Of a stretch of DNA of 64,000 nucleotides, positions 38,101-64,000 are shown piece by piece. The number at the start of each line of letters is the position of its first letter. Position 1 is the first letter of the stretch. This DNA is from Vicugna vicugna (Eukaryota): positions 161,008 to 225,007 of the forward strand of contig MU057951.1 in assembly GCA_013265495.1 (NCBI GenBank), in the 5' to 3' direction. The translations under genes and the position numbers were made by a program. The notes under the pieces were generated by a model. That model saw only the letters and a list, made by a program, of their open reading frames with translations. It was not told the origin of the DNA and made no database searches.

Positions 38101-41100
38101 TTCTGTAGCATCCTGCTGCTTTTCTATTTAGAATAGACCTTTCAATATTTCTTTTAGCATGGGTTTAGTGTTTCTAAACTCCTGCAGCTTTTTCTTGTCT
38201 GTGAAATTCTTTATGTCTCATTGTATCCTAAAAGATAGCCATGCTATATAAAGTATTCCGGGCTGCATCTTTTTTTTCATTCAGAACTTTGAATGTATCT
38301 TGCCACTCCCTTCTGTCCTGTAGTGTTTGTGTAGAGAAATCAGCCAAGAGCTTTATGGGGGTTCCTTTGTAACTTACTTTTTGTTTTTCTCTTGCTGCCT
38401 TTAGGATCATTTGTTTATCCTTGACTCTGGCCATCTTGATTATGATATGTCTTTCTGTGTGTCTGCTTGGGTTTTTCCTGTTTGGGACACTCTGAGCTTC
38501 CTGTACTTGGATATCTGATTCCTTCTTTAAGTTTGGAACAATTTCAGTCATGATTTCTTCAAAACCTTTTCAATCCCCTTTGATCTTTCTTCCCCTTCTG
38601 GGACCCCTATTATGCGACAATTGACATGCTTTATATTATCCCATAGGTCCCTTATGCTATTTTCATTTGTTTTTATTTGTTTATCTTACAGCTGTTCTGA
38701 TTGGATGCTTTCTATTGTCCTGTCTTCTAGGTCACTAATTCCTCCTTCTGTATAATCTAGTCATCTTTGCACAGCTTTCAGATCATTCCTCATCTCAGTC
38801 AATGAGTTTACCCATTCTACTTGGCTCTTCTTTATAGCTTCAATTTCATTTTTGACATTTTTTTAATCTCTAAACACTATCTCTTTTAGTTCCTTCACCA
38901 CTTTGATCACTCCTTTTTTGAAATCTTGATCTAGTAAGGTATCAATGTCTATTTCATTCATCATTCTTTCAGGGGATTTCTCTTTTTTTTTATTGGGAAT
39001 GGTTTCTCTGCTTCTTCATCTTGCTCATATCTCTCTGGCAGTGTGGTTTGTGGAGTATCAGTTATGTATTGTGGTCCTTAAGGAGTTTATCTATCTAATG
39101 CCTATGTAGGAATAAGACTTAGGGAAAAAGAAAAAAAAGAGAGTGAGAGAGAAACAATTTTCAAAGAAGGGAGAAAAAAGGTTTGAAAACAGTGTATAAT
39201 GAATAAGTGAAGAGCAAGTTGAAGCAGAATAGCAATTGGGTTGAGACATCCTTCTAAACCCTTTGAAAAAAGGGGGGGATGAAAAGATGTATTTGAAACC
39301 TGTTTATAATCAATAACAGGACACTAAAACCCAAGAGAAATAAAAATGAATGAAGAGTAAAAATTAAGAGGGTAATAGAAAATAGAACATGTAAAAACAG
39401 AATTAAAAAATAAGAAGGGGGTCCTGTGTTCTCCTGGAGACTGTGTGCTTTCAATGTGAAGTCTTTCTATCTTTGTCCTGTTTTGGAAGCTCAGCTTGCT
39501 GTTTCCAGAGGCCCTCCATTGGCGCCTTCGTCTGTGATGTTCCCAGTGCATGTCGGCAGACAGATCGCGCCTCCTCCCAACACTGGGTTAGGTGTAGCTC
39601 TCCTTTGCTGTGGGCCGGCTGGTAACTGCCCCTCCCGATGCCGCAGTCAGATGTTGCAGACTGGCCAGGTTGGAAGGCAGGTCACGCCCCCTCTCAGCAC
39701 TGTGATCAGGGTTTGCTTTCCTGCCTGAAATGTGGGGGGCTGCCTTCCTTCTCCTAGTGCCTGTTGCTCTGCTGCTCTGTGACACTGCATGCTCCACCTC
39801 GAGTTGGCTCTCCACAGGTGGCCTCCAGGAAGCCTGAGGAACAGCCTTGTCCCTGGGCCAGAACACAGCTCCTTGTTTGTCTTGGCAGAACAAGTTCTCT
39901 GAGGGACCAGGACGGAAGGATCCTATCTGCCTCGGGTTGTAGACAAGTCTCCATCTGGCCTTTGAGGCTGCTAAGCCCTTAGGTGTGGATGCAGGTTTTG
40001 CCCCCATCCGTGCCTGGGTGCTAAGCGCCAGAGGATATGGTGGCTGTGTGTGAGCCCCGCCTCTCTTCCTCCAGAAACTTTCTGTGGGTTTTCAGAGATG
40101 GGGGTATGCACCCTTCCCCTCAGGGCACATCAGCCATGTTGTTTTACGGAGGGCCCAGGTTGTTCTGCCCTGTGCACCCACAGCCACAGCACGCAGCCTC
40201 CCAGCAGTCCCCTGGGGCAGCCTCAGTGCAGCCGCCCCCATTTTCCACCCAGTTCGGGCAGCCTGGCCATGCCCCCAGCTGCCGGCCCTCGTCTTGGGCT
40301 GGGTGTCGCAGAGACCCTCTGTGCCCTTTTAACTTAGTTCTGTCGGTCAAGGGCTGCTCTGTACAAATCCAAGCCTCGGAAGCTCCTCCTCCATCCTGCT
40401 GGCCTCTCGGTTGGAGAAGGGAGACCCAGCAATTGAGTACCAGTCTTCCTTTGCTGCTCCCTCCCCGTGGGACCTGTCTTGCTCTGCTTTGCCTTTTCTT
40501 CTTTCTTTTTTCCTTTTCTCCTACCAGATTTTCAGTGTCTCTATCTTTTGATGAAGGCGATGTTCTGTCAGAGTTCTGCAGGTGCTCTGGTTGGCTGAGT
40601 GGGTCTGTGGATGTGAGTCTTGTTGCATTTGTGGCAGAGGGTGAACTACGAGCGTCCTTCTACTCTGCCATCTTCTCTCTTCCTCCCCTCTGTGCTTCTT
40701 GTAATTGGATATTTGATTCCTTCTTTAGGTTTGGAAAGTGTTCAGTCATGATTTATTCAAGTATCTTTTCAATCCCATTTTCTCTTTCTCTTCTTTCTGG
40801 GACCCCTATTATGTGTAGGTTGGCATGCTGTATAATATCACTTAGGTCATTTATATTGCTTTGATTGATTTTTACTTGCTTTTCTGTCTGTTGTTGATTG
40901 GGTGACTTTTGCTATCCTGCCTTCTAAGTCACCTATTCATTCATCTACATTATCTAATCTGCTTTGACAGCCTTTAGCTCTGCTTGCATCTCAGCCATTG
41001 AGTTTTCTGTTTTTAATTGGCTCCTCTTTATAGTTTCTATTTCCTTTTTATAGTATTCTCTGTCTCCATTCATAGTCTTTCATATTTCCTTTATGATTTT

Positions 41101-42816
41101 ATCACTCCCTTTCATGTTTTAGTAGATTGTTGAGGTCTATCTCATTGATCATTCTTTTAGGCATCTTCTTTCATTATTTAATTGGAAGTGGTTTCTCTGC
41201 TTCTTCCTTTTACTTATATTTCTCTGAATCTATGGATTTAGATTTATAATTTATCTACTGTTGTCTTGAAGGGCTGTTTTTTTAATATTTGCTTTTATTT
41301 AAAGTGGGAACATTCCTCTGTAGACTGTGTGCATCTAATAGTTTTTTTTTGCAAGGGCTATTCTTACTCTGGATGGTTGCCAAATCATTCTTCCTTGTGT
41401 GTTGTTTTTTATCCCTTTGTTTGGGAGTGTGGTTGGTATTGTGGTGATCAGAGCCTGCCCTTATTGTTTTTGCTGAGCAAGGTCTCCTTTTTTGTTCTTT
41501 GGTTGTCACAGCCTTGACTGCAGCTAGGTCTGCTCCACTTTTGCCAGAATGGAGGCTTCTAGACCCATTCTGAGCTATAGTGTGTCATAGGCAATGTTGG
41601 ATCACTTTAGCTGGGAAGAAGGGTCTCTGAATTTATCTCTGCAGGTGATGTCCACTGGGAATTTCCCTCTCGGGTGTTGTCTGTCACTGGTTATGCATGC
41701 TCACAAGGTACTTTTTCTTGATGCTTCCTTTGCCCCTGCCTTAGCTGCCACTCACTCTGGTGTCCCCCAGGTTCTGGTCCCCTGGAACCACCAGTGCAAA
41801 TACAACAGTGTCAGGCACTAGGACCCACCATAGTGAGTCTGCAGTCACACACATGAATCTGTCATTTTCTGCACTGTCAGCACAGACACCAGCCTTGCCT
41901 CCACATATGGTACAGTACCCTGGTCTGTTGTAAGTACTGGTACTCACCCCCTATATGAGCCAGAACTCTGCTCACTACCTTTTTGTCCCAGTGGTGTGTG
42001 TCCACAAAGGGTCCAGAGAGAGTAAATACTCTTTCTTCCTGCCTGTGTCTATAAGCAAATCTCAGTCCAGCCTGTGAAGTTGCAGGGATAATGGGTATGG
42101 ATTCAGCTTTCAGCCCCACCTCCACATAGCAGCAATGGCTATAACTGAGCTACACCTCTCTTCTTGTGAGAACATACCACCAGTGTAGCCAAGTGGAGAC
42201 AAGGGCTATGGTGAGACTGTGTTGCTTTCCTCCTCCATATATACACTAGGAGTTGTGCTTTTTTATGGAGGTCCTGAGCTGTTATTTACCATACACACCT
42301 CCAGCAAGAGCTCACACCACCTTCCAGCCCCCTGAGGCTGCCTCTCTGCAGTGGACCCCAGTTCTCTACCTGGGCTCCTCACTGATCTCTGGCAGCCAGA
42401 CTTGGCTTGTCCCTGCTGGCTCATGTCTAGGGCCAGGAATGGGGACCCTTTGTGGTGGTTTCCCTTAGTTCTGTCTGCCAAGATACTGCTACTTTCTCCT
42501 CTGAGCCTCAGAAGTTCTGCTTCTGTTTCTGCTGACTTCCAGGCTGGAGAGGGTGTATCCCAGTGTGAGGGTGCCTTTCTCCTATGACAATCCCTTTCTG
42601 CAGGTCTTGCACCAATTTTTTTCTTTTTTATTATTATTTTTCTTTTTTTCTCTTACTAGACTTTATGAGAATCCTGTATTTCAAAGTAAGGGACACTCTG
42701 CCAGAGTTCAGTAGGTATTCTGTGGGATTCAATGGGTTTGCAGATATAATTCTTGGTATATTTGTGGGAAAGGACAATATATGAGTCTCTCTCCTCCAAC
42801 ATCTTGGCAGATCCCC
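29113..42816 (-). mobile_element. Older full-length LINE-1, split within ORF1 by a nested L1 (pieces 29113-33607 and 40686-42816)
   Basis: Degenerate ORF2 fragments 29502-32737. ORF1 remnant is contiguous across the 17-bp TSD. 5' end reads ggggatctgccaagatgttggagg from 42816. Confidence 0.88.
33608..40685 (-). mobile_element. Full-length (~7.1 kb) LINE-1: GC-rich 5' UTR, ORF1 (~39028-38128) and ORF2 (37726-33944), both disrupted
   Basis: 5' end gaagagagaagatggcagagtag (YY1-type gccatctt at 40667-40674). EN ORF 37148..37726; RT ORF 35488..36474 with catalytic motif decayed to YDND. Perfect TSD ccctctgtgcttcttgt at 33591-33607 and 40686-40702. Confidence 0.97.
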
Positions 42817-43529
42817 CATGACATTAATTTTAAAATATCAATTTTCTGTTGTTCTCCATTGAAACAAAGCACGGATATAATGTTAGTGAAACTTTAATTG
42901 GATGTAACTAAACTGAAAACTTCCTAAATGATCATCAAAGAGTTGTTTCCCAATCTCACAGCTGAAATATGAAACTTTTGGTGATGCTTTTTGAGAATGG
43001 AGACTGTGTAAGAGAAGGGAGACACAAGCTACTTTTGAGAAATTCAAATACACATAAAATGTAAATATAAAAGAAAAGGAAAAACAAAACAAAACAAAAC
43101 CTCACCACCCAAACATATGTCTTCCAGGAGATATGGCAATGATGTAGTTCCATATTATATAGAACTCCATGCTAGACTACCCCTAGGGAAGCAAAATTAT
43201 AACACATGTACATGCTTGGGAAAGGGACAATCTTAAAAATTAAAAAACAAAAAACAAAAAACAATTGAATGTCAGTCTTCTATTTCCTCAAAGGAATATT
43301 CTGACCAAAGAAATACCAATAAAAATACATTGGTATTTACCCCTGTTTACAGAAATTAACAGTGCTGATATTCATACCTGTCCACTAAGACATACACTTC
43401 ACCCTCAAGAACTTTTTCAAAGTCCATGGAATATCAGCTGAAAGGAGGTCTGGTTTGGAGCCAGTTTTGGGTGGAGACAAAGATCATGCCTTGAGGCAGT
43501 GGATGTCTAACTTTCAGTAGATATTAGAC

Positions 43530-52683: not shown

Positions 52684-55600
52684 GAGACGAGGCTAAGACA
52701 GTGGAGAAGTAGGATCCCATAGCTCACCTTCTCCCACAGATACACCAAGACTCACATCCAAAGACTTACTCAGCCAACCAGAGCACCTGCAGAACTCCGA
52801 CAGAATATTGTCCCCTTCAAGAGACAAAGACACCAAGAATCTGTTTTATTACTACATAGGCACTAGATAGATAAATAAATGAACTCCTTTAAGGACCACA
52901 ATAGATAACTGATACTCCATATGCCACAGTGCCAGAGAGATATGAGCAAGAAGAAGAAGCAGAAAAACCATTCCCAATTAAAAGAACAAGAGAAATCCCC
53001 TAAAAGAATGATCAATGAAATAGACATCAATAGCTTACTTCATCAAGGTGTCCAAAAAGGATTGATCAAAGTATTGAAGGAACTAAAAGAGATAGTGTTT
53101 AGAGATATAAAATGTCAAAAATGAAATCGAAGCTCTAAAGAAGAGCCAAGTAGAACTGGTGAACTTACTGGCTGAGAAGAGAACGGATATAAAGGCTATG
53201 CAAAGCAGACTAGAAAATGCAGAGGAACAAATCAGTGACCTAGAAGACAGGATAACAGGAAGCACCCAATCAGAACAACTGCAAGATAAACAAATAAAAA
53301 CAAATGAAAGCAAAATAAGGGACCTATAGGATGCTATAAAGCATGCCAATCTTTGCATAATAGGGGTCCCAGAAGGGGAAGAAAGATCAAAGGGGATTGA
53401 AAAGGTTTTTGAAGAAATCATGACTGAAAATTTCCCAAAATTAAAGAAGGAATCAGATATTCAAGTACAGGGAGTTCAAAGGGTCCCAAACAGGAAGAAC
53501 CCAAACAGACCCACACCAAGACATATCATAATCAAGATGGCCAGAATCAAGGATAAACAAATGATCCTAAAGGCAGCAAGAGAAAAGCAAAGAGTGAGTT
53601 ACAAGGGAATTCCCATAAGGCTCTCAGCTGATTTCTCTACACAAACACTACAGGACAGAAGGGAGTGCAAGATATATTCAAAGTATGAATGAAAAAAAGA
53701 TGCAGCCTAGGATACTTGACACAGCAAGGCTATCCTTTAGGATAGAAGGAGAGATAAAGAATTTCACACACAAGCAAAAACTTAAAGAGTTTACCAACAA
53801 TAATCCATGCTAAAAGAAATATTGAAAGGGCTATTCTAAATATAAAAGCAGCAGGATGTTACAGAAATCAGATACTCACAACTGGAAAGGTGATAACTCA
53901 AGAATTACAAATAAAATAAACACAAAATTGTAAAAGAAGACATACACATCATTAAGAGTGGGAGAGGGAAGCAAGAGAATATAGAGTATTTTTTTTCTTT
54001 CTTTTTAAAATATTTTCTTTTTGGTAGGATGGTTTCGAGATATAGTAATGGGCTAATAGACTCACAGAAAAGGGTAACCAAAAACCAAAAACTCACAGGG
54101 GAGTCACAAAAACTAAAGTCCATGATAATACAAAGGATAATTGCCAAACCACAAAAGGAAGAAGAAAGGAACAAAGAGGAAATAACAAATCAACTGCAAA
54201 GGGAAATTCAAAATGGCAATAAACACACATCAATCATTAATTACTGTAAATGTTAATGGACTAAAGGCTCCAGTCAAAAGACATAGAGTGGCAGACTGGA
54301 TAATAAAGCAAGAACCTTCAATATGCTGCATACAAGAGACCTGCTTTAGGGAGAAGGACATATATAGATTGAGAGTGAAAGGATGGAAAAGAATATTCCA
54401 TGCAAATGGAAAAGCCAAAAAAGCAGGTGTTGCAGTTGATTTCAGACAAAACAGACTTTAAAGCAAAGGCCATAAAGAAAGATAAAAAGGACATTTTATA
54501 ATGATTAAAGGAGTGACACAAGATGAGGATATTACACACATTAATATATATACACCCAATATCGGAACACCTAAGTATATAAAACAATAACAAACAGAGA
54601 TAAAGGGGGATATTGATGGGGATACAATCATAGTTGGAGATTTTAACACTGCATTAACATCACTAGACAGATCTTCTAGTCTGAAAATAAATAAGGCAAC
54701 AGAGAAACTAAATAATACAATAGAAAAATGAGATTTGGTGGATATTTTCAGAGCATCACACCCCAAAAAAGAGGATATACAGTTTTTTCAAGTGCACATG
54801 GAACATTTTCAAAGATTGATCATGTACTTCGGCAGAAAAGAAATCTCAACAATTTTAAGAAGATAGAAATTATCTCAAGCATCTTTACTGACCACAATGC
54901 CATGAAACTAGAAATCAACAACAGAGAAACAAAGGAGAAAAAAAGGAAAGCATAGAGATTAAACAATATGCTATTAAAAAAAAACAATGGGACAATGAAG
55001 AAATCAAAGCTGAAATTAAAAAACACCTTGAGACAAATGAAAATGGAAGTACAATCACACAAAATTTATGGGACACAGCAAAGGCAGTGCTTAGAGGGAA
55101 GTTTATAGCGATACAGGCCTTCCTCAAAAAGGAAGAACAATCTCAAATAAACAATTTAACCCACCAGCTGAAAGACTAGAAAAAGAAGAAAAAACCCCAA
55201 AAGGCAGCAGAAGGAAGGAAATTATAAAGATTAGGGAGGAAATAAATTAAATTGAGATTAAAAAAAATTTAAAAATCAATCAAACGAAAAGGTATTTTTT
55301 TAAAAAAAGTAAATAAAATCGACAAGCCTCTTGCCAAACTCACAAAGAAGAAAAAAGAGAGAGCATAAATTAGCAAAATGAGAGAGGAAAATGGAGAAAT
55401 TACAACAAATAAAATAGAAATACAGAATATCATACTAGAGTAGTATGAAAAACTATATGGAAACAAACTGTATAACCTAGAGGAGATGGACAAGTTTCTG
55501 CAAACATACTGTCTACCAAGACTGAATAAAGAATAAACTGACCACTTGAACATATCAATCACTAGAAATGAAATCGAAATAGCAATTAAAAACCTCCCTA

Positions 55601-57475
55601 CAAATAAAAGTCCAGGACCAGATGGCTTCAACAGTGAATTCTACCAAACATACAAAGAAGAACTCATACCAGTCCTTTTCATACTATTCCAGAAGATTGA
55701 AAAGGAAGGCATACTCCCAAACTCATTCTATGAAGCCACCATCACCCTGATACCAAAACCAGGCAAAGACACTACCAAAGAAGAGAATTATAGGCCAATA
55801 ACTCTAATGAACATAGACACCAAAATACTCACCAAAATATTAGCAAATAGAATCCACCAACACATAAAAAAGATTATACATTATGACCAAGTGGGATTCA
55901 TCCCAGGGACACAAGGATGGTTCAACATATGGAAATCAAACAATGTCATACATCACATCAACAAGAGAAAGGACAAAAATCACATGATCATCTCAATAGA
56001 TGCAGAAAAGGCATTTGATAAAATCAACACCCATTTATGATAAAAATTCTCAGCAAAGTGGGTATAGAGGGAACAAATCTCAACATCAGAAAAGCTGTAT
56101 GTGACAAACCTACAGCCAGCACAGTACTCAATGGTGAAAAACTCAAAAGCTTCCCACTAAAATCTGGGACAAGACAAGGATGCCCACTATCACCACTGTT
56201 ATTCAATATATTCCTGGAAGTGCTAGGCACAGCAATCAGGCAAGAGAAAGAAATAAAATGTCATCCAAATTGGAAAAGAAGAGAGAAAACTGTCACTATA
56301 TGCCGACATGTTCCTATATATAGAAAACCCTACAAGGTCCACACAAAAACTACTAGAGCTGATCCAAGAATTCAGCATGGTAGCAGGTTACAAGATTAAC
56401 GTTCAAAAATCAGTTGCATTTGTTTACACTATGAATCAACAGAAAAAGAAAGTAAAGAAACAATCCCCTTTGAAATAGCACCCAAAGTAATAAAATATCT
56501 AGGAATATATCTAAACAAGGAAGTGAAAGAATTATACACAGAAAACTATAAACCCATTGAAGAAGGAAATTAAAGAAGACTTTAAAAAATGGAAAGATAT
56601 CCCATGCTCTTGGAATGGAAGAATCAATATTTTAAAATGGTCACACTGCCCAAGGCAATCTATAGTTTTAATGCAATCCCTATGAAATTAACCAGGGCAT
56701 ATTTCACAGAACTAGAACAAATCATAATAAAACTTATATGGAACCATCAAAGACCTAGAATTGCCAAAGCATTAGTGAAGAGAAAGGAAATAGGCTGGAG
56801 GAATAACTCTCCCAGACTTCAGACAATACTGTAGCGTCACCGTCATCAAGACAGCATGATATTTGTACAAAAACAGACTTATACACCAAGGGAACAGAGT
56901 AGAGAGCCCAACTTCTGGTCAACTAATCTTTGACAAAGGATGCAAGAATATACAATGGAATAAAGACAGTCTCTTTAGCAAATGATGTTGGGAAAACTGG
57001 AGAGCAGTATGTAAATCAGTGAAGCTAGAACACTCCCTTACACCATACACAAACATAAACTGAAATTGGTCAAAGACTTAAACATAAGACAATATACAAT
57101 AAACCTCCTAGAAGAAAATATAGGCAAAATATTATCTGACATACATCTCAAGAATGTTCTCTTTGATAAGTCTTCTCAAGCTATAGAAATTAAAGCAAGA
57201 ATAAACAAATGGGACCTAGTTAAACATACAAGCTTCTGCACAGCAAAGGAAACCATAAGTAAAACAAAAAGACAACCTACGGAATGGGAGAAAATTTTTG
57301 CAAATGAAACCAACAAAGGCTTGATCTCCAGAATATATAAGCAGCTCATGTGACTTAATAAGAAACAAACAAATAATCCAATCCAAAAATGGGCAAAAGA
57401 CTTAAACAAGCAATTCTCCAAGGAAGACATACAAATGATCAATAGGCACATGAAAAAATGCTCAATATCACTAAT
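52684..57475 (+). mobile_element. LINE-1 with retained 5' end, spliced-out 5' UTR segment, disrupted ORF1/ORF2 and missing 3' end
   Basis: 5' sequence is homologous to 40685-40525, then jumps to sequence homologous to 39117 onward. ORF1 ATG ~52941, ORF2 ATG 54213 (MAINTHQSLITVNVNG). Homology stops at ~57475 with no A-tail. Confidence 0.95.
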
Positions 57476-57558
57476 TTAAATTTAAAATGCACATGTGACT
57501 AATACATATATATGTACATATGTGCATATCTAGATCTAGATAATGAACATTTTTTTTA

Positions 57559-58042
57559 TGTTGACTGAAATAAATGCACAACCTAAAATCTGAGGGTTAT
57601 GTTTTATTTGGTGGACAATTCTGAGTACTTGATCCTGGGATAAAAGCCTCTCAGATTGCTCTTAGGGACTGCTCCAATGAAGTAGGTGAGGAGCTGGGAT
57701 ATATAGGAGTTTTACAACAAAGGACAGGTAGTTGGAACTTTAAAATTCACTTATTAACTAAAGAAAACCAGGTATCTCAAGTAAAAGAATTTAGAGCTTT
57801 TCTATATATGGGAGGTAGCAAACATTTGGGCTCATTGAATTCATTTCTTTGACAAGCATCTAGCTATCTAGGGCCAGTATCCTGTCTTTTCTTATTCTCA
57901 GTCCCCTCAGAGTGCACCATTGTGAGTGGATGAAGAGGCCAGGCTGCTGGCTTGTCTTCACTAGGGGGTGACGGCAGCCACTGACAACTTGATGGCTTCA
58001 GCATCCTTTGTTTACTGATACGGTTTGCAGTTTTTTTTCACA
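57559..58042 (-). mobile_element. ERV1 solo LTR (MER41-like, cetartiodactyl type)
   Basis: TG...CA termini and 484 bp long. Minus-strand TATA-like (~57700) and AATAAA (57603-57608). Flanks ttta/atta. Family from recall. Confidence 0.7.
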
Positions 58043-58616
58043 ATTATAAGATAAAATATGAATTAGAGGGTATAAGAACAAAACCAAGGAAAACAGGGAT
58101 AAGATTTGGAATCTGGAAAATCAACAGGAAACATTAATTTACCAGATACAGCATAGTGTTCAATGAAATGTTTCCTTCTCTATCTTCATGGTTAGTTTTA
58201 ATGGCTTCCAAGAATGTGAAATGGGTTTCTCAAACTTAAGAATGGTTTTATATGACTGATTTTCAGCTCTTGCTAGTAGTTTCCTTTGAAACTTAAAACA
58301 AATGTTAAACAAGCATGTTTCTGTCTATTATCACTCCAACTATGCAAAAACAGTAGCAAAAAGAGTAGATTGAAAAATCTCAAGTGGCAATAATGATTAC
58401 TGCAGGCTTTAAAGTGTGGAAGAGTAGAAGGATGAGAGTCACTGGGAGGTCAACAAATCTTTAACCACACACTTAACTTCCTGCACCTCTTTTAAAAAAC
58501 AAGGAAGAAGACCAAATATTTTTAAAAAGGTAAAAAGAAAAATTTAAAAATTAGTCCATAGAAGTCATATTTTATGCAAACAGAAATACCTCTTAATTAA
58601 ATGTTTGCTTATATCC

Positions 58617-58769
58617 AATGGAGTGCTGGTAAACCAGCTCTTTAGGGGGAGAAAAGTCCTGATTTGTTATTTGCTCACTTCCATGGCATAACTACTCCCA
58701 CCTTGGCTGATTTTAAATAGTTTAGCAGTCAAATTCCTAAATATTAACAATTATCTGTCCAGACCACTG
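58617..58769. mobile_element. MER63-like hAT DNA transposon fragment
   Basis: gtgctggtaaaccagctct...cctgatttgt...tactcccaccttggctgattt resembles the MER63 end; terminates in ccactg. Confidence 0.6.
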
Positions 58770-59062
58770 ACAATCACTAGACTAGTTCGGATCTCAAGAG
58801 GTACAAGTATGAGTGTGTGTGTTTGTGTGTGTGTAGCGGAAGAGGTACTTGTCCTCCATGAATGAGCTGCTTCATTGCTTCACTTCTTTAGATCTATTTT
58901 TCTTCTCATGCATATGTTATGTATTTGAAATTAGAAAGCAAGAAACACAAAATTATAATAAGCCATATTTAACAGATGATAAATGTTCTACCCTTTCAGC
59001 CTCAAAACCCTAAATGGGAAATTAGGGTAATTTTTTGTTTTTATAAATTATTGGAATAATTG

Positions 59063-62000
59063 TGACAAAGATTTTTTCTTTTACAAACTTTAGACAGGCT
59101 CCTCTAAATTCTCTTTTAAACTAGGCCTCCTATTTGAGCATTGTCTTTGGCCTGCCTAACCTAGTTGCTAGAAGAATCCTGCTAGTTTAGTTTAGTGAAA
59201 GTCTCCACCCTTGGCATTTAATCACCTTCAATATATGATTAAATTCCTCATCCCCCGTATCTCCATTCGTGATTCTGAATCCTAAACCAGAGCTCCAGGA
59301 AACAGTCCCTCCAATCACAATAAAGATAGATTTTGATTTCTAAGATTCTGAGTATACACTCTGAATCTACATTAGAATTTCAGTCTTCTATGTTTGAGAT
59401 GTAAGTATTTCTTGGGCTGGAAGTTCTTCCTGCCTCCTTGTTGTGAGTGGGGATTCACTGACTCCTAGACTGGAAATTTTTTGCTGGCTCTATGTGAAGA
59501 TTCCTTATTCTTTCTATTTGATTATGCTTCTCCCCTGAAAATTTCTGTCAATTGAAATATCCTTTCTTGAAACCCTTAAGACTACATTCCACCACTACAG
59601 CAGTAACTCGGTTCACTTCTTTGCTTGATGGTAGGATTTTATTTAAGGGCAATTTGAGACCTTATTTTTTCTTTCTTTGAAAATTAAGATCTCCCCAATG
59701 CAGCTACTATAAGACCTCTCCCTATCACCTCCCCTCCTCCTTCCTCTTTTTAATCTCTTTTGATCTCCCCTTCAGGCCCCTTGAATTCTTTCATATGTCC
59801 CCCTTCAAACTCTTACCTCCTCTATCTTTGTCTATCCCTGCCAGACTTTTCCCTTTCCACTTCAACCTCTCAATTTCTTGCACTCTAGTCCCTTTGCCAA
59901 TTATCAGGGACTCTCAAGGTTTTCAGGGAGACCCAAACCAACTGAATATCATGATGAAATAAATATTACAATCTGCTCTGTAAATAAAATGTTCATTAAA
60001 AAGAATTAGTCTAGTCCTCAGATTGACGGTAACCTTCACTTGTTCCATCTGCTAGAAACACAGTTCAGATAAAAATATAAAGTGGAGCAAAGATGAGAGC
60101 CAACTATTTGATATAAACTAGTTAGTTTTGTATTCTTATCCTTGTCTGACTAATGGCTAAAATTTTAGAATGAAAGAAACTATAAGATCTCCATTTACAT
60201 TTGTCTGTATAGAAATAACTAAATTATATGTAATATTATTATTCTTCTGGATGGTATTACCAAGTGAATTCATAATATCTTATAAAGGAGCTCTTCTTAT
60301 TGGCTTAGAGATATAAATAAGCACTTCCAAGAATTAAATATTCCTAAAATTCCTAGAAATATGAAAACTAACACAAATGTTTTTCAAGTTGACATAATAT
60401 AGGGATATTTTTGGCAAAAAATATTAGTTCGGTATTATTGGTTTAATAAAATGGATTATCTACTGAATTATCAACATTAAGCATAATTAAAACCTACATT
60501 TTTATTGTAGTTGGGTTTAATAGTGAAATAAGGTAATATATCAAGATATTTAAGATCATAAAAATTATAGATCTAACCTAAGAACAAATGCACAAGTAAA
60601 GGTGCTGTTAAAATGAATTACTTCATGCATGTCAAGCACAGCCACCAAACAACAACAATAAGAACAAAGAAACTTTATTTTACTTAAATTTTTTAGGGGA
60701 TTTTCAATACTTGCCTTACATGTACTACAAAAATAGTTAAAAGGGAAATAATTTGAGATAGTGGCTACCTCTGTATATGACTGCTTAAAAGTGGTTTTCA
60801 AAATACCTTTGTCAACTTGTAACCTTAAATTTATGCTAAGTTAAATAATAGATATTTATTAAATATCTAGGTCATTTCTAAGTAAGATACAACATTGAAG
60901 TTTTCAAAAGTTTAAGTTTATATAATTTTGGCTTATTTTTACATGGGAGAAAAAGGCTAAATATACTTGAATGTGTTAATAAACAAGTTCTATTTGCATT
61001 CTGAGTAATTGTACTATGAGGAAACATACACCTATATAATTGTGAGCTAGTGTACTCACAAAATTTACTAGTCTTCTACAGAATTCTGGTATGTGACAGA
61101 CAATTCAAATTTGTCTACTTCCTGTTTTCTCTCTAAAAAAAGTTACTAGTGGTTAAAAATTGTAATCAATATATGAAAACAAAACTAGTAGATATAATGA
61201 GAGTGAAAGGGAACACATATGCATGCAAAGTATGCAATGAAAGTAAGATGTGCTTTTGATAATGAAGCACATACATGGTATAAATAATTTTAAAGGAAAA
61301 GGAGAGATATTTCATCCAAATGTGACTGTTTTTTTCTGGAATGAGAAAGAGGGAAATACAGAACAAAAACTGAATTTATATAAAAAATCATAGAATGTTT
61401 GTGGAAAAGGAATCTTATGTTACATGATCAAAGATAGCAAATGTTGGATGGGCTTAATAATAATGTGTTTCCTGAAATGAACTTTAATAATAACAGTACA
61501 CGGACTCAAAACTGGAGTTTGTTTTTCTCTTTTTTAAAAGAACAATGTCTTCTTGGATTAGTGGTCTGCTCTTTAATAAATTATAAGTGGTTTCTAATTA
61601 CTTTTTTAAGAAGTCTGCATAGGAAACCAATATTTTGTGTCTTACCAGAATGACTTCCTGAAGTTTATGTTAACCTTTATGAAATCCTTAATTATTTGAC
61701 AGGATGGACTCTTTTCACTTTTTTAAAAGACTTAAGGTGTTTTACAACAATTTTATCTCCTACAGTTACTTTTGAATTATTTTGTTGTCACTTTGTTTAA
61801 ACATAGTCAAGTATAGTTTCATAATAACTTAAGATCTTATGTAGTCAAATGTTAGAAACCTTTTTTCAAAACATTTTGACAAGTTTTTATATTTTCCTCT
61901 CCAAAATTATATCTTAAATGAAATCCTGATTTCTGCCATTCCTAGACTTCCCCAAGCTCCCCTGGAAAACCTCAAAGAATTTGTTACTTTGCAGTCAAAC

Positions 62001-63560: not shown

Positions 63561-63567
63561 CTTGGAA

Positions 63568-64000
63568 TGAAGACCTAAACAAGAAATTATCCAAGGAAGA
63601 AATACAAATGAGCAATCTGCACATGAAAAAATGCTCAAAATCACTAATTATCAGAGAAATGCAAATCAAAACTACAGGGAGTTACCACCTCATACCAGTC
63701 AGAATGGCCATCATTCAAAAGTCCACAAATGACAAATGCTAGAGAAGATGTGGAGAAAAGGGAACCCTCCTACACTGCTGTTGGGAATGCATTTTGGTGC
63801 AGCCACTATGGAAAACAGTGTGGAGATTCCTCAAAATACTAGGAATAGACTTACCATATGACCCAGTAATCCCATTCCTGGGCATTTATCCAGAAGGGAC
63901 CCTACTTCAAAAAGACACCTGCACCCCAATGTTCATAGCAGCACTATTTACAATAGTCAAGATATGGAAACAGCCTAAATGTCCATCAAGAGATGGCTGG
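63568..64000 (+). mobile_element. LINE-1 ORF2 3' portion running off the window end
   Basis: Homologous to 26700-27130 (gaagacctaaacaag...cctcctacactgctg). Confidence 0.93.

What the first reader, a model, noticed from the sequence alone, without database searches (positions are those of the whole stretch)
52684..52960. Spliced, retrotransposed L1 (SpIRE-like): 5' UTR deletion matches a GT..AG intron in the sister full-length copy
Seen: this copy reads ...caccaagaatctg|ttttattactacataggcactagatag (junction 52843/52844). The full-length minus-strand copy reads ...cactgaaaatctg|GTAGGAG at 40525/40524 and, 1407 nt later, tctctttttttttctttttccctaAG|tcttattcctacataggcattagatag at 39118/39117. The missing piece therefore starts with GT and ends with a long polypyrimidine tract plus AG. 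The older L1 subfamily has a donor-like tcta|GTAAGA at the equivalent place (42656-42651). Known: spliced integrated retrotransposed elements are described for primate L1 5' UTRs; they lose most of the internal promoter but keep the ORFs. Inference: this lineage's L1 has its own 5' UTR intron, and the spliced RNA was competent for retrotransposition. I do not know of a description for this lineage.
Basis: partly seen in the sequence, partly recalled or inferred. Interest (0 to 1): 0.8.

Follow-up and report, generated by a model that had tools for sequence, protein, structure and literature searches.

The report
Retrotransposed spliced L1 copies (SpIREs)
This L1 jumping-gene copy lacks exactly a GT...AG-bounded piece of its leader, as do dozens of independent copies in this mammal's genome, so it was most likely copied back from spliced L1 RNA, a process already known from human L1.

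Summary
The copy at 52684 joins ...aatctg to ttttattac... at 52843|52844. The minus-strand full-length copy carries 1407 extra bases there, starting GT (40524) and ending AG (39118).

The scar recurs: 21 exact junction matches in the 2.03-Gb genome against 0 for the control, and 7 more among ORF1 relatives. The copies have unique flanks and start at the normal L1 5' end. Target-site duplications and poly(A) were seen in 8 of 12 checked.

Long copies of the same subfamily supply the exact precursor (...aaaaatctg|gtaggag ... ttttttaag|ttttattcc). Short and long copies interleave on an ORF1 tree.

The same donor is also joined to two other 5'UTR sites, each behind a pyrimidine run plus AG (17 and 4 copies). 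The subfamily that uses the distal site has lost the proximal AG.

This is the human SpIRE pattern in another L1 leader, whose likeness to the human one I did not test. It is unusually frequent: about 19% of one subfamily against about 2% in human.

RNA evidence was not obtained. The window's long copy is a cousin subfamily, not the parent. This scan had already reported the same scar at a sister copy (e1-8043532).

The parts
52684..52843 (+). Exon 1 of the spliced copy: the first 160 bases of the L1 5'UTR, from the normal L1 5' end to the donor point
   Evidence: It aligns to 40648-40525 of the long copy, and its 5' end is in register with all other short and long copies.
52843..52844 (+). 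Splice scar (aatctg|ttttattac)
   Evidence: The same junction is at 21 loci, and 7 more were found among ORF1 relatives.
52844..52941 (+). Exon 2 part of the 5'UTR, up to the ORF1 ATG at 52942-52944
52942..57476 (+). Decayed ORF1-ORF2 body of the spliced copy. The alignment to the long copy stops at 57476 and the 3' end is not resolved.
   Evidence: No target-site duplication was found for this copy.
40525..40686 (-). Exon 1 of the unspliced subfamily-B copy (5' start 40686, last exon base 40525)
39118..40524 (-). The 1407-base stretch missing from spliced copies. It starts gtaggag (40524) and ends with a T-rich tract plus ccctaag (39118).
   Evidence: Its first ~390 bases are homologous to the older L1 5'UTR.
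39891..39908 (-). Proximal acceptor site ggtccctcag|agaacttg (AG at 39900-39899). It is intact in this copy and used by junction-2 copies elsewhere in the genome.
39026..39117 (-). Exon 2 part of the 5'UTR of the long copy, with the ORF1 ATG at 39028-39026
42650..42663 (-). Donor-like aagtcta|gtaagag at the equivalent place in an older L1 5'UTR (5' start about 42817)

Best explanation
The element at 52684 is one of at least 27 independent full-length L1 insertions that lack exactly the stretch between a conserved GT and an AG behind a pyrimidine tract in the 5'UTR, and it was most likely made by reverse transcription of a spliced L1 RNA (a SpIRE).

Shown by the calls:
- The precise scar.
- Its recurrence at loci with unique flanks.
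- The normal L1 5' end, target-site duplications and poly(A).
- Exact unspliced precursors in the same subfamily.
- One donor joined to three different AG sites.
- Loss of the proximal AG in the subfamily that uses the distal site.

Inferred:
- The spliceosome removed the piece from L1 RNA transcribed from long source elements.
- The spliced RNA kept both ORFs and was inserted by target-primed reverse transcription.
- This happened repeatedly while the subfamily was active, not from one short master.
- Loss of the proximal acceptor (cag to cgc/cac) redirected splicing to the distal acceptor at the end of the T-rich tract. This would explain why about 1 in 5 copies of that subfamily are spliced.
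For: Junction and recurrence:
- The junction 23-mer is found 21 times; the reversed control 0 times.
- Of the 30 nearest ORF1 relatives of one short copy, 11 are short (7 of them new) and 19 are long.
- All aligned short copies (27) and long copies (14, plus 1 empty row) start at the same L1 5' end, with unrelated flanks.
- Target-site duplication plus poly(A) is seen in 8 of 12 short copies examined.

Precursors:
- Long copies of the same subfamily read ...caaaaatctg|gtaggagaaagg. The donor string was found in the own 5'UTR of 15 of 19.
- They also read ...ttttttaag|ttttattcctacatagg, in 19 of 19.
- The skipped stretch is 1461-2485 bases in 13 copies measured. 23-24 of the 25 bases before AAG are pyrimidines.

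Short versus long copies:
- On the ORF1 tree of 60 rows, short and long interleave: 17 changes against a shuffled mean of 20. Starred branches force at least 2 origins.
- An AU test rejects a single short clade, p 0.022.
- No site separates 23 short from 19 long copies in about 1.1 kb (lowest p 0.07 over 706 columns).
- Exon-1 markers, which were not used for the tree, show short copies in both intermediate and A states.

One donor, three acceptors:
- Exon-1 end followed by a non-G gave 49 hits: 14 distal junction, 17 junction 2, 4 junction 3, 3 mutated donors and 11 singles. The control gave 5.
- In unspliced copies, junction 2 sits behind ...tccttccatcctggtccctcAG, 377 to 656 bases after the donor, mostly about 620. 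AG is present in 19 of 21 copies found.
- Junction 3 sits behind ...cttggtcttccccgAG, 458 to 718 bases after the donor, about 705-718 in 3 of 4. AG is present in 4 of 4.
- Junction-2 and junction-3 copies have unique flanks. They share their 5'-end variants with unspliced copies.

Direction and subfamily differences:
- The older L1 5'UTR aligns across the donor into the skipped stretch (61.6% over 562 bases, E 4e-38). The long form is therefore ancestral.
- Subfamily A long copies have GC or AC, not AG, at the proximal site (0 of 14 found, 15 examined).
- Census with the same 20 exon-2 bases: 83 unspliced against 20 spliced.
- The other subfamily has 244 unspliced and 0 with the distal junction. 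Fisher p 7e-12.
Against: - No spliced RNA was seen. Any RNA with the distal junction could also come from transcribed genomic copies.
- The core donor and distal acceptor look just as good in the subfamily with 0 of 244 distal junctions. Splice-site strength alone therefore does not explain the 19%. My explanation (proximal AG lost) is an inference.
- The star-like tree has little resolution: 41 of 57 inner branches are open. The AU p of 0.022 is modest.
- The window copy and its sister share 10 private substitutions that no other copy has. This fits a short source element as well as a lost long one.
- The donor matches only part of the usual consensus (recalled). MaxEntScan was not available.
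- The window copy itself shows no clear target-site duplication.
Confidence: 0.8

Rival explanations
1. A short-leader master lineage. One or a few spliced copies kept enough promoter in the first 160 bases to be transcribed from the normal start. They then produced most of the short copies themselves, so the short copies are a sub-lineage and not repeated splicing products.
For: - The spliced share is about 19% or 11 of 30, far above the human 2% (PMC5860796, passages).
- There are 0 distal junctions among 244 in a subfamily with equally good core sites.
- All short copies start at the normal L1 5' end with no 5' transduction.
- The pair L002/L003 shares 10 private substitutions found in no other copy.
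Against: - Short copies lie on both sides of two branches with at least 95% support, together with long copies.
- An AU test rejects one clade, p 0.022.
- No site in 1.1 kb is private to short copies.
- Exon-1 markers change in step in short and long copies.
- Loss of the proximal AG offers another reason for the subfamily difference.
- End-branch lengths of short and long copies are alike.
Confidence: 0.15
2. A DNA-level deletion or a reverse-transcriptase template jump, unrelated to splicing, that happened to fall at GT and AG and was then amplified.
For: One base (G) of microhomology lies at the junction. GT..AG is only one of two equally good placements of the gap.
Against: Three different junction classes all start at the same donor. 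Each ends directly behind AG with a pyrimidine run. The junction is identical to the base in at least 27 insertions from at least two subfamily states. Random jumps would scatter, and the 11 single hits are close to the control level of 5.
Confidence: 0.03
3. The short leader is ancestral, and the long form arose by insertion of about 1.4 kb of new 5'UTR.
For: With only 14 long copies of another subfamily sampled, the first tree showed short copies as a grade below a long clade.
Against: An older L1 5'UTR is homologous across the donor into the skipped stretch. With subfamily-matched long copies added, the grade dissolves.
Confidence: 0.01

Closest known systems
Human SpIREs (SpIRE97/622, 97/790, 97/976; Larson et al. 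2018, PMC5860796: abstract and passages read)
   Same: These are full-length L1 insertions with target-site duplications and poly(A). They lack an intra-5'UTR piece bounded by a donor and an acceptor of the L1 RNA. One donor near the 5' end is shared by several acceptors, and the donor is conserved across subfamilies. A change in the 5'UTR creates a new SpIRE class.
   Different: - The leader here has a different layout; I did not compare the two leaders.
- The donor lies about 160 bases in. The skipped piece is 0.6-2.5 kb and, for the distal class, ends at a long T-rich tract.
- The share is about 19% of one subfamily against 131 of 6,609 (about 2%) in human.
- No RT-PCR or promoter data exist here.
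- No 5'UTR/ORF1 class was seen. Junctions that begin with G were not searched.
Spliced L1 RNAs and processed L1 copies reported by Belancio and colleagues (cited in PMC5860796; not read here, recalled)
   Same: L1 RNA carries working splice sites, and spliced forms can be found integrated in the genome.
   Different: As far as I recall, those reports concern human and mouse L1. I did not check them.
RAP1GDS1/L1PA2 SpIRE that regained activity through a host promoter (10.1101/2025.02.02.635956, passages read)
   Same: It shows that a spliced L1 copy can serve as a source again. This is the question raised by the L002/L003 pair.
   Different: In that case the progeny carry host exons at the 5' end. 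Here all short copies start at the normal L1 5' end.

Membership tests
SpIRE (spliced integrated retrotransposed element of L1) | An internal gap whose ends coincide with GT and AG splice signals in unspliced L1 of the same kind | tested here: met
   This holds for all three junction classes.
SpIRE (spliced integrated retrotransposed element of L1) | Marks of L1 retrotransposition: target-site duplication, poly(A) tail and an otherwise full-length element | tested here: met
   8 of 12 short copies examined have a duplication plus poly(A). Of the other four, 2 are unclear, 1 runs into N and 1 has another insert; normal 5' ends. The endonuclease target motif was not scored.
SpIRE (spliced integrated retrotransposed element of L1) | Many independent insertions with the same scar | tested here: met
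   at least 27 loci with unrelated flanks; no flank homology between the two closest copies apart from a 93-base repeat.
SpIRE (spliced integrated retrotransposed element of L1) | The spliced L1 RNA exists in cells | tested here: inconclusive
   contigs of RNA runs cover the 5'UTR, but among the 15 joints shown per call none lies at the donor. 15 and 16 more joints were not shown. Contigs drop rare forms. The one raw-read run laid nothing.
SpIRE (spliced integrated retrotransposed element of L1) | Weakened promoter, so that copies are dead on arrival | not testable with these tools
   This needs a reporter assay. The L002/L003 pair leaves the point open.

The most novel reading that the evidence does not exclude
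In this L1 lineage spliced copies are not all dead ends. The first 160 bases of the leader hold a working promoter, and at least one spliced copy (the source of the window copy and its sister 99 kb away) was copied again. A short-leader L1 would then have competed for a time with its long-leader parent and reached a fifth of the subfamily.
Probability: 0.15. Interest if true: 0.7.

Novelty: new member of a known kind. Interest (0 to 1): 0.5.

Why it matters
- It would show that retrotransposition of spliced L1 RNA is not limited to the primate L1 leader. It recurs in another L1 5'UTR with the same layout: one conserved donor near the 5' end and several acceptors.
- It gives a natural experiment. 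A two-base loss of the proximal acceptor goes with a switch to a distal acceptor and a roughly ten-fold higher share of spliced copies.
- This bears on why L1 keeps a costly donor site and on how 5'UTR turnover shapes L1 fitness.
- For annotation, these copies should not be counted as a separate L1 subfamily or as full-length promoter-bearing elements.

Tried and rejected
RNA evidence
- I laid one raw-read RNA run and three RNA-seq contig sets on the window's long 5'UTR. I laid four contig sets on a long copy of the other subfamily (after three 'machine busy' answers).
- The raw run laid nothing. The contigs showed no joint at the donor among those listed. Contigs cannot show rare isoforms, so this says nothing either way.
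- Depth differences between exon 1 and the middle of the skipped stretch were not interpreted.

First tree
- The first tree used long copies picked by an acceptor pattern from another subfamily. It wrongly suggested that the short form was basal. I replaced it with a sample chosen by ORF1 likeness.

Distal junction in the other subfamily
- A search for the distal junction in the other subfamily found none.

Target-site duplication of the window copy
- None was found in 56000-62000 or beyond the window. The element's alignment stops at 57476, and the L1 piece at 63562-64000 repeats the same L1 segment. Its 3' end is unresolved.

Host lineage
- The protein atlas gave only 'Chordata', so the lineage is left unnamed.

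Splice-site scores
- MaxEntScan scores were not computed because no tool was available.

Literature
- Two searches listed no SpIRE census outside human. Most hits were the surname Spires. I read only titles and abstract starts, so this is not proof of absence.

Errors
- Two scripts with a faulty regex returned nothing; one search fixed this.
- One call failed on word format and one on term length.

Full report
**1. Observation**

- The plus-strand L1 copy starts at 52684 and reads ...caccaagaatctg|ttttattactacatagg at 52843|52844. Its ORF1 ATG is at 52942.
- The minus-strand full-length copy starts at 40686 and reads ...gaaaatctg|gtaggag at 40525|40524.
- 1407 bases further on, that copy reads ...ctttttccctaag|tcttattcctacatagg at 39118|39117.
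- BLAST aligns the short copy to both sides of this stretch and to nothing inside it.
- One G fits either side, so GT..AG is one of two equally good placements.
- The older L1 further up the minus strand (5' start about 42817) reads tcta|gtaaga at 42657|42656.

**2. Which form is ancestral**

The older L1 5'UTR aligns to the long copy from 40674 to 40137. This is 61.6% identity over 562 bases (E 4e-38), and it runs across the donor point and about 390 bases into the skipped stretch. The long leader is therefore the older state, and the short leader is a deletion derivative.

**3. Recurrence and independence**

The window lies in a 2.03-Gb genome, G000.
- The junction 23-mer (two degenerate places) matches 21 loci. 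The reversed control matches 0.
- I took 801 bases of the ORF1 region of one short copy and fetched its 30 best relatives (3352 candidates, 40 scored).
- Of these 30, 11 have the short leader. Four were already known, and seven were new because of point changes in the 23-mer. The other 19 have a long leader.
- All aligned copies begin at the same L1 5' end (...ggccaagatggcggagtag...), preceded by unrelated DNA. These were 27 short copies and 14 long copies; one further long row was empty.
- For 12 short copies I fetched the expected 3' end. Eight show a poly(A) tail followed by a repeat of the 5' flank, 11-16 bases long in the clear cases. Two are unclear, the window copy among them. One runs into N, and one has another insert.
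- These are therefore separate retrotransposition events of RNAs that had the normal 5' end.

**4. The true precursor**

The window's long copy is only 82-87% identical to the short copies, and it carries different exon-1 markers.
- The 19 long copies found through ORF1 likeness are the matching subfamily, here called A.
- After fetching their upstream DNA, all 19 reach the L1 5' end or come within about 30 bases of it.
- The donor string ...caaaaatctg|gtaggagaaagg was found in the own 5'UTR of 15 of the 19.
- All 19 read ...ttttttaag|ttttattcctacatagg at the other end.
- Exon 1 and exon 2 of the short copies are the same, letter for letter, as these flanks.
- In subfamily A the skipped piece is 1461-2485 bases in 13 copies measured. 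23-24 of the 25 bases before AAG are pyrimidines.
- The T-rich module is repeated two or three times in these copies.

**5. One subfamily or repeated events?**

I built an ORF1 tree of 60 rows: 27 short and 33 long. I left out four duplicate loci, one copy broken just after the junction, and one short locus.
- Short and long copies interleave: 17 changes of state against a shuffled mean of 20. Branches with at least 95% support force at least two origins.
- An AU test rejects a tree with all short copies together (delta lnL 73, p 0.022).
- Among 23 short and 19 long copies of the main clade, no column of about 1.1 kb separates the two forms. The lowest Fisher p is 0.07 over 706 variable columns.
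- Exon-1 markers were not used for the tree. They show short copies both in an intermediate state (acatcgc/acatcat) and in the A state (acactgt), as do long copies.
- This speaks for repeated production of short copies from an evolving long lineage.
- The tree is star-like, with 41 of 57 inner branches unresolved, so a few short-lived short sources cannot be excluded.

**6. One donor, three acceptors**

I asked for the exon-1 end (gacrccaaaaatctg) followed by anything but G. There were 49 hits; the control gave 5.

| Class | Hits |
|---|---|
| Distal junction | 14 |
| Junction 2 (agaacttgctcc...) | 17 |
| Junction 3 (cccacccgcgg...) | 4 |
| Unspliced copies with a mutated donor G | 3 |
| Single hits | 11 |

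- In unspliced copies of the other large subfamily (C, exon-1 marker gataaag), junction 2 lies 377 to 656 bases after the donor, mostly about 620, directly behind ...tccttccatcctggtccctcAG. The site was found in 21 of 30 donor loci, and 19 of the 21 have AG.
- Junction 3 lies 458 to 718 bases after the donor, about 705-718 in 3 of the 4 copies found, directly behind ...cttggtcttccccgAG or ...ccccaAG. AG is present in 4 of 4.
- Nine junction-2 and four junction-3 copies that I fetched have unrelated flanks.
- Each class shares its variant of the L1 5' end with unspliced copies.
- So three different gaps all start at one GT and each ends at an AG behind a pyrimidine run. Splicing predicts this; deletion or template jumping does not.
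- It mirrors human SpIRE97/622, 97/790 and 97/976, which share one donor (PMC5860796, passages).

**7. Why the distal site in subfamily A only**

I used the same 20 exon-2 bases for each count.

| Subfamily | Unspliced | Distal junction |
|---|---|---|
| A | 83 | 20 (19%) |
| C | 244 | 0 |

- Fisher's test on these counts gives p 7e-12.
- The donor and the distal acceptor look alike in both subfamilies.
- At the proximal site, however, subfamily A reads cctcgc|aaagttc or cctcac. AG is present in 0 of 14 copies found, out of 15 examined.
- Subfamily C and the window's long copy keep ccctcag|agaacttg.
- My inference is that loss of the proximal AG sent splicing to the distal AG.
- The high share may reflect efficient use of that site or a better yield from an RNA with a 259-base leader. 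This is not tested.
- In human, 131 of 6,609 full-length L1PA1-6 copies (about 2%) are SpIREs (PMC5860796, passage).

**8. RNA**

One run search and two lays gave no joint at the donor. Seven of the eight run-lays were contigs, which drop rare forms, and the raw-read run laid nothing. This leaves the RNA step inferred.

**9. Comparison and novelty**

- All sequence-level features that define a SpIRE are met.
- The two functional ones, spliced RNA in cells and a weak promoter, are open.
- Two literature searches (listings only) showed no census outside human. I recall earlier work on human and mouse L1 splicing but did not read it.
- This scan had already reported the same scar at the sister copy 45.7 kb before the window (e1-8043532); my results agree with it and extend it.
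- A note on a spliced mini-L1 family in this genome (e1-7855650) prompted the donor census. I did not test that note itself.

**10. Open point**

The window copy and its sister share 10 private substitutions, and two marker patterns find only these two in the genome. Their flanks are unrelated. Either one spliced copy was copied again, or both came from a source that is no longer in the assembly.

**Verdict**

This is a real and well-supported feature: a new member of a known kind, with an unusually high frequency and a clear acceptor switch.

Noticed in passing
window 52684-57476 (L003) and G000:C1115:~109700-115292 (L002): The window's spliced copy and another spliced copy 99 kb away on the same contig lie in opposite orientation. 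They share 10 private substitutions in 1.1 kb. Two marker patterns find only these two copies in the genome. Their flanks are unrelated. They may be parent and offspring, or two offspring of a lost source.
   Followed up: partly
loci L068-L096 with L097-L115 (subfamily A long copies): The T-rich module just before ORF1 is tandemly repeated two or three times in this subfamily's 5'UTR, which stretches the skipped piece to 1.5-2.5 kb.
   Followed up: partly
loci L038, L045, L049, L052, L053, L056: These L1 copies have the same donor 23-mer, but their 5'UTR lacks the T-rich module and the first ~50-80 bases of exon 2 relative to the window's long copy. They are a further leader variant.
   Followed up: no
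window 40687-41272 and 40686 downwards, minus strand: The long copy is nested inside the ORF1 of the older L1 whose 5'UTR starts near 42817.
   Followed up: no
window 40037-40864, plus strand: A 275-codon open frame runs antisense through the GC-rich part of the long copy's 5'UTR and beyond its 5' end. It is probably a by-product of base composition.
   Followed up: no
window 57403-57476 and 63562-63649: Both stretches match the same segment of L1 (34551-34464 of the long copy), with about 6 kb of other DNA between them. The short copy's 3' part is therefore rearranged, or a second L1 fragment lies there.
   Followed up: partly
loci L039-L066 and L130-L142: Many L1 loci carrying the subfamily-C leader markers hold long runs of N, which are either assembly gaps or withheld stretches. 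This limits any census of that subfamily.
   Followed up: no
L055:1340-3023 in runs X1 and X3: Summed contig depth is tens of times higher over exon 1 and over the T-rich tract and exon 2 than over the middle of the skipped stretch. By the tool's own caveats this cannot be interpreted.
   Followed up: no
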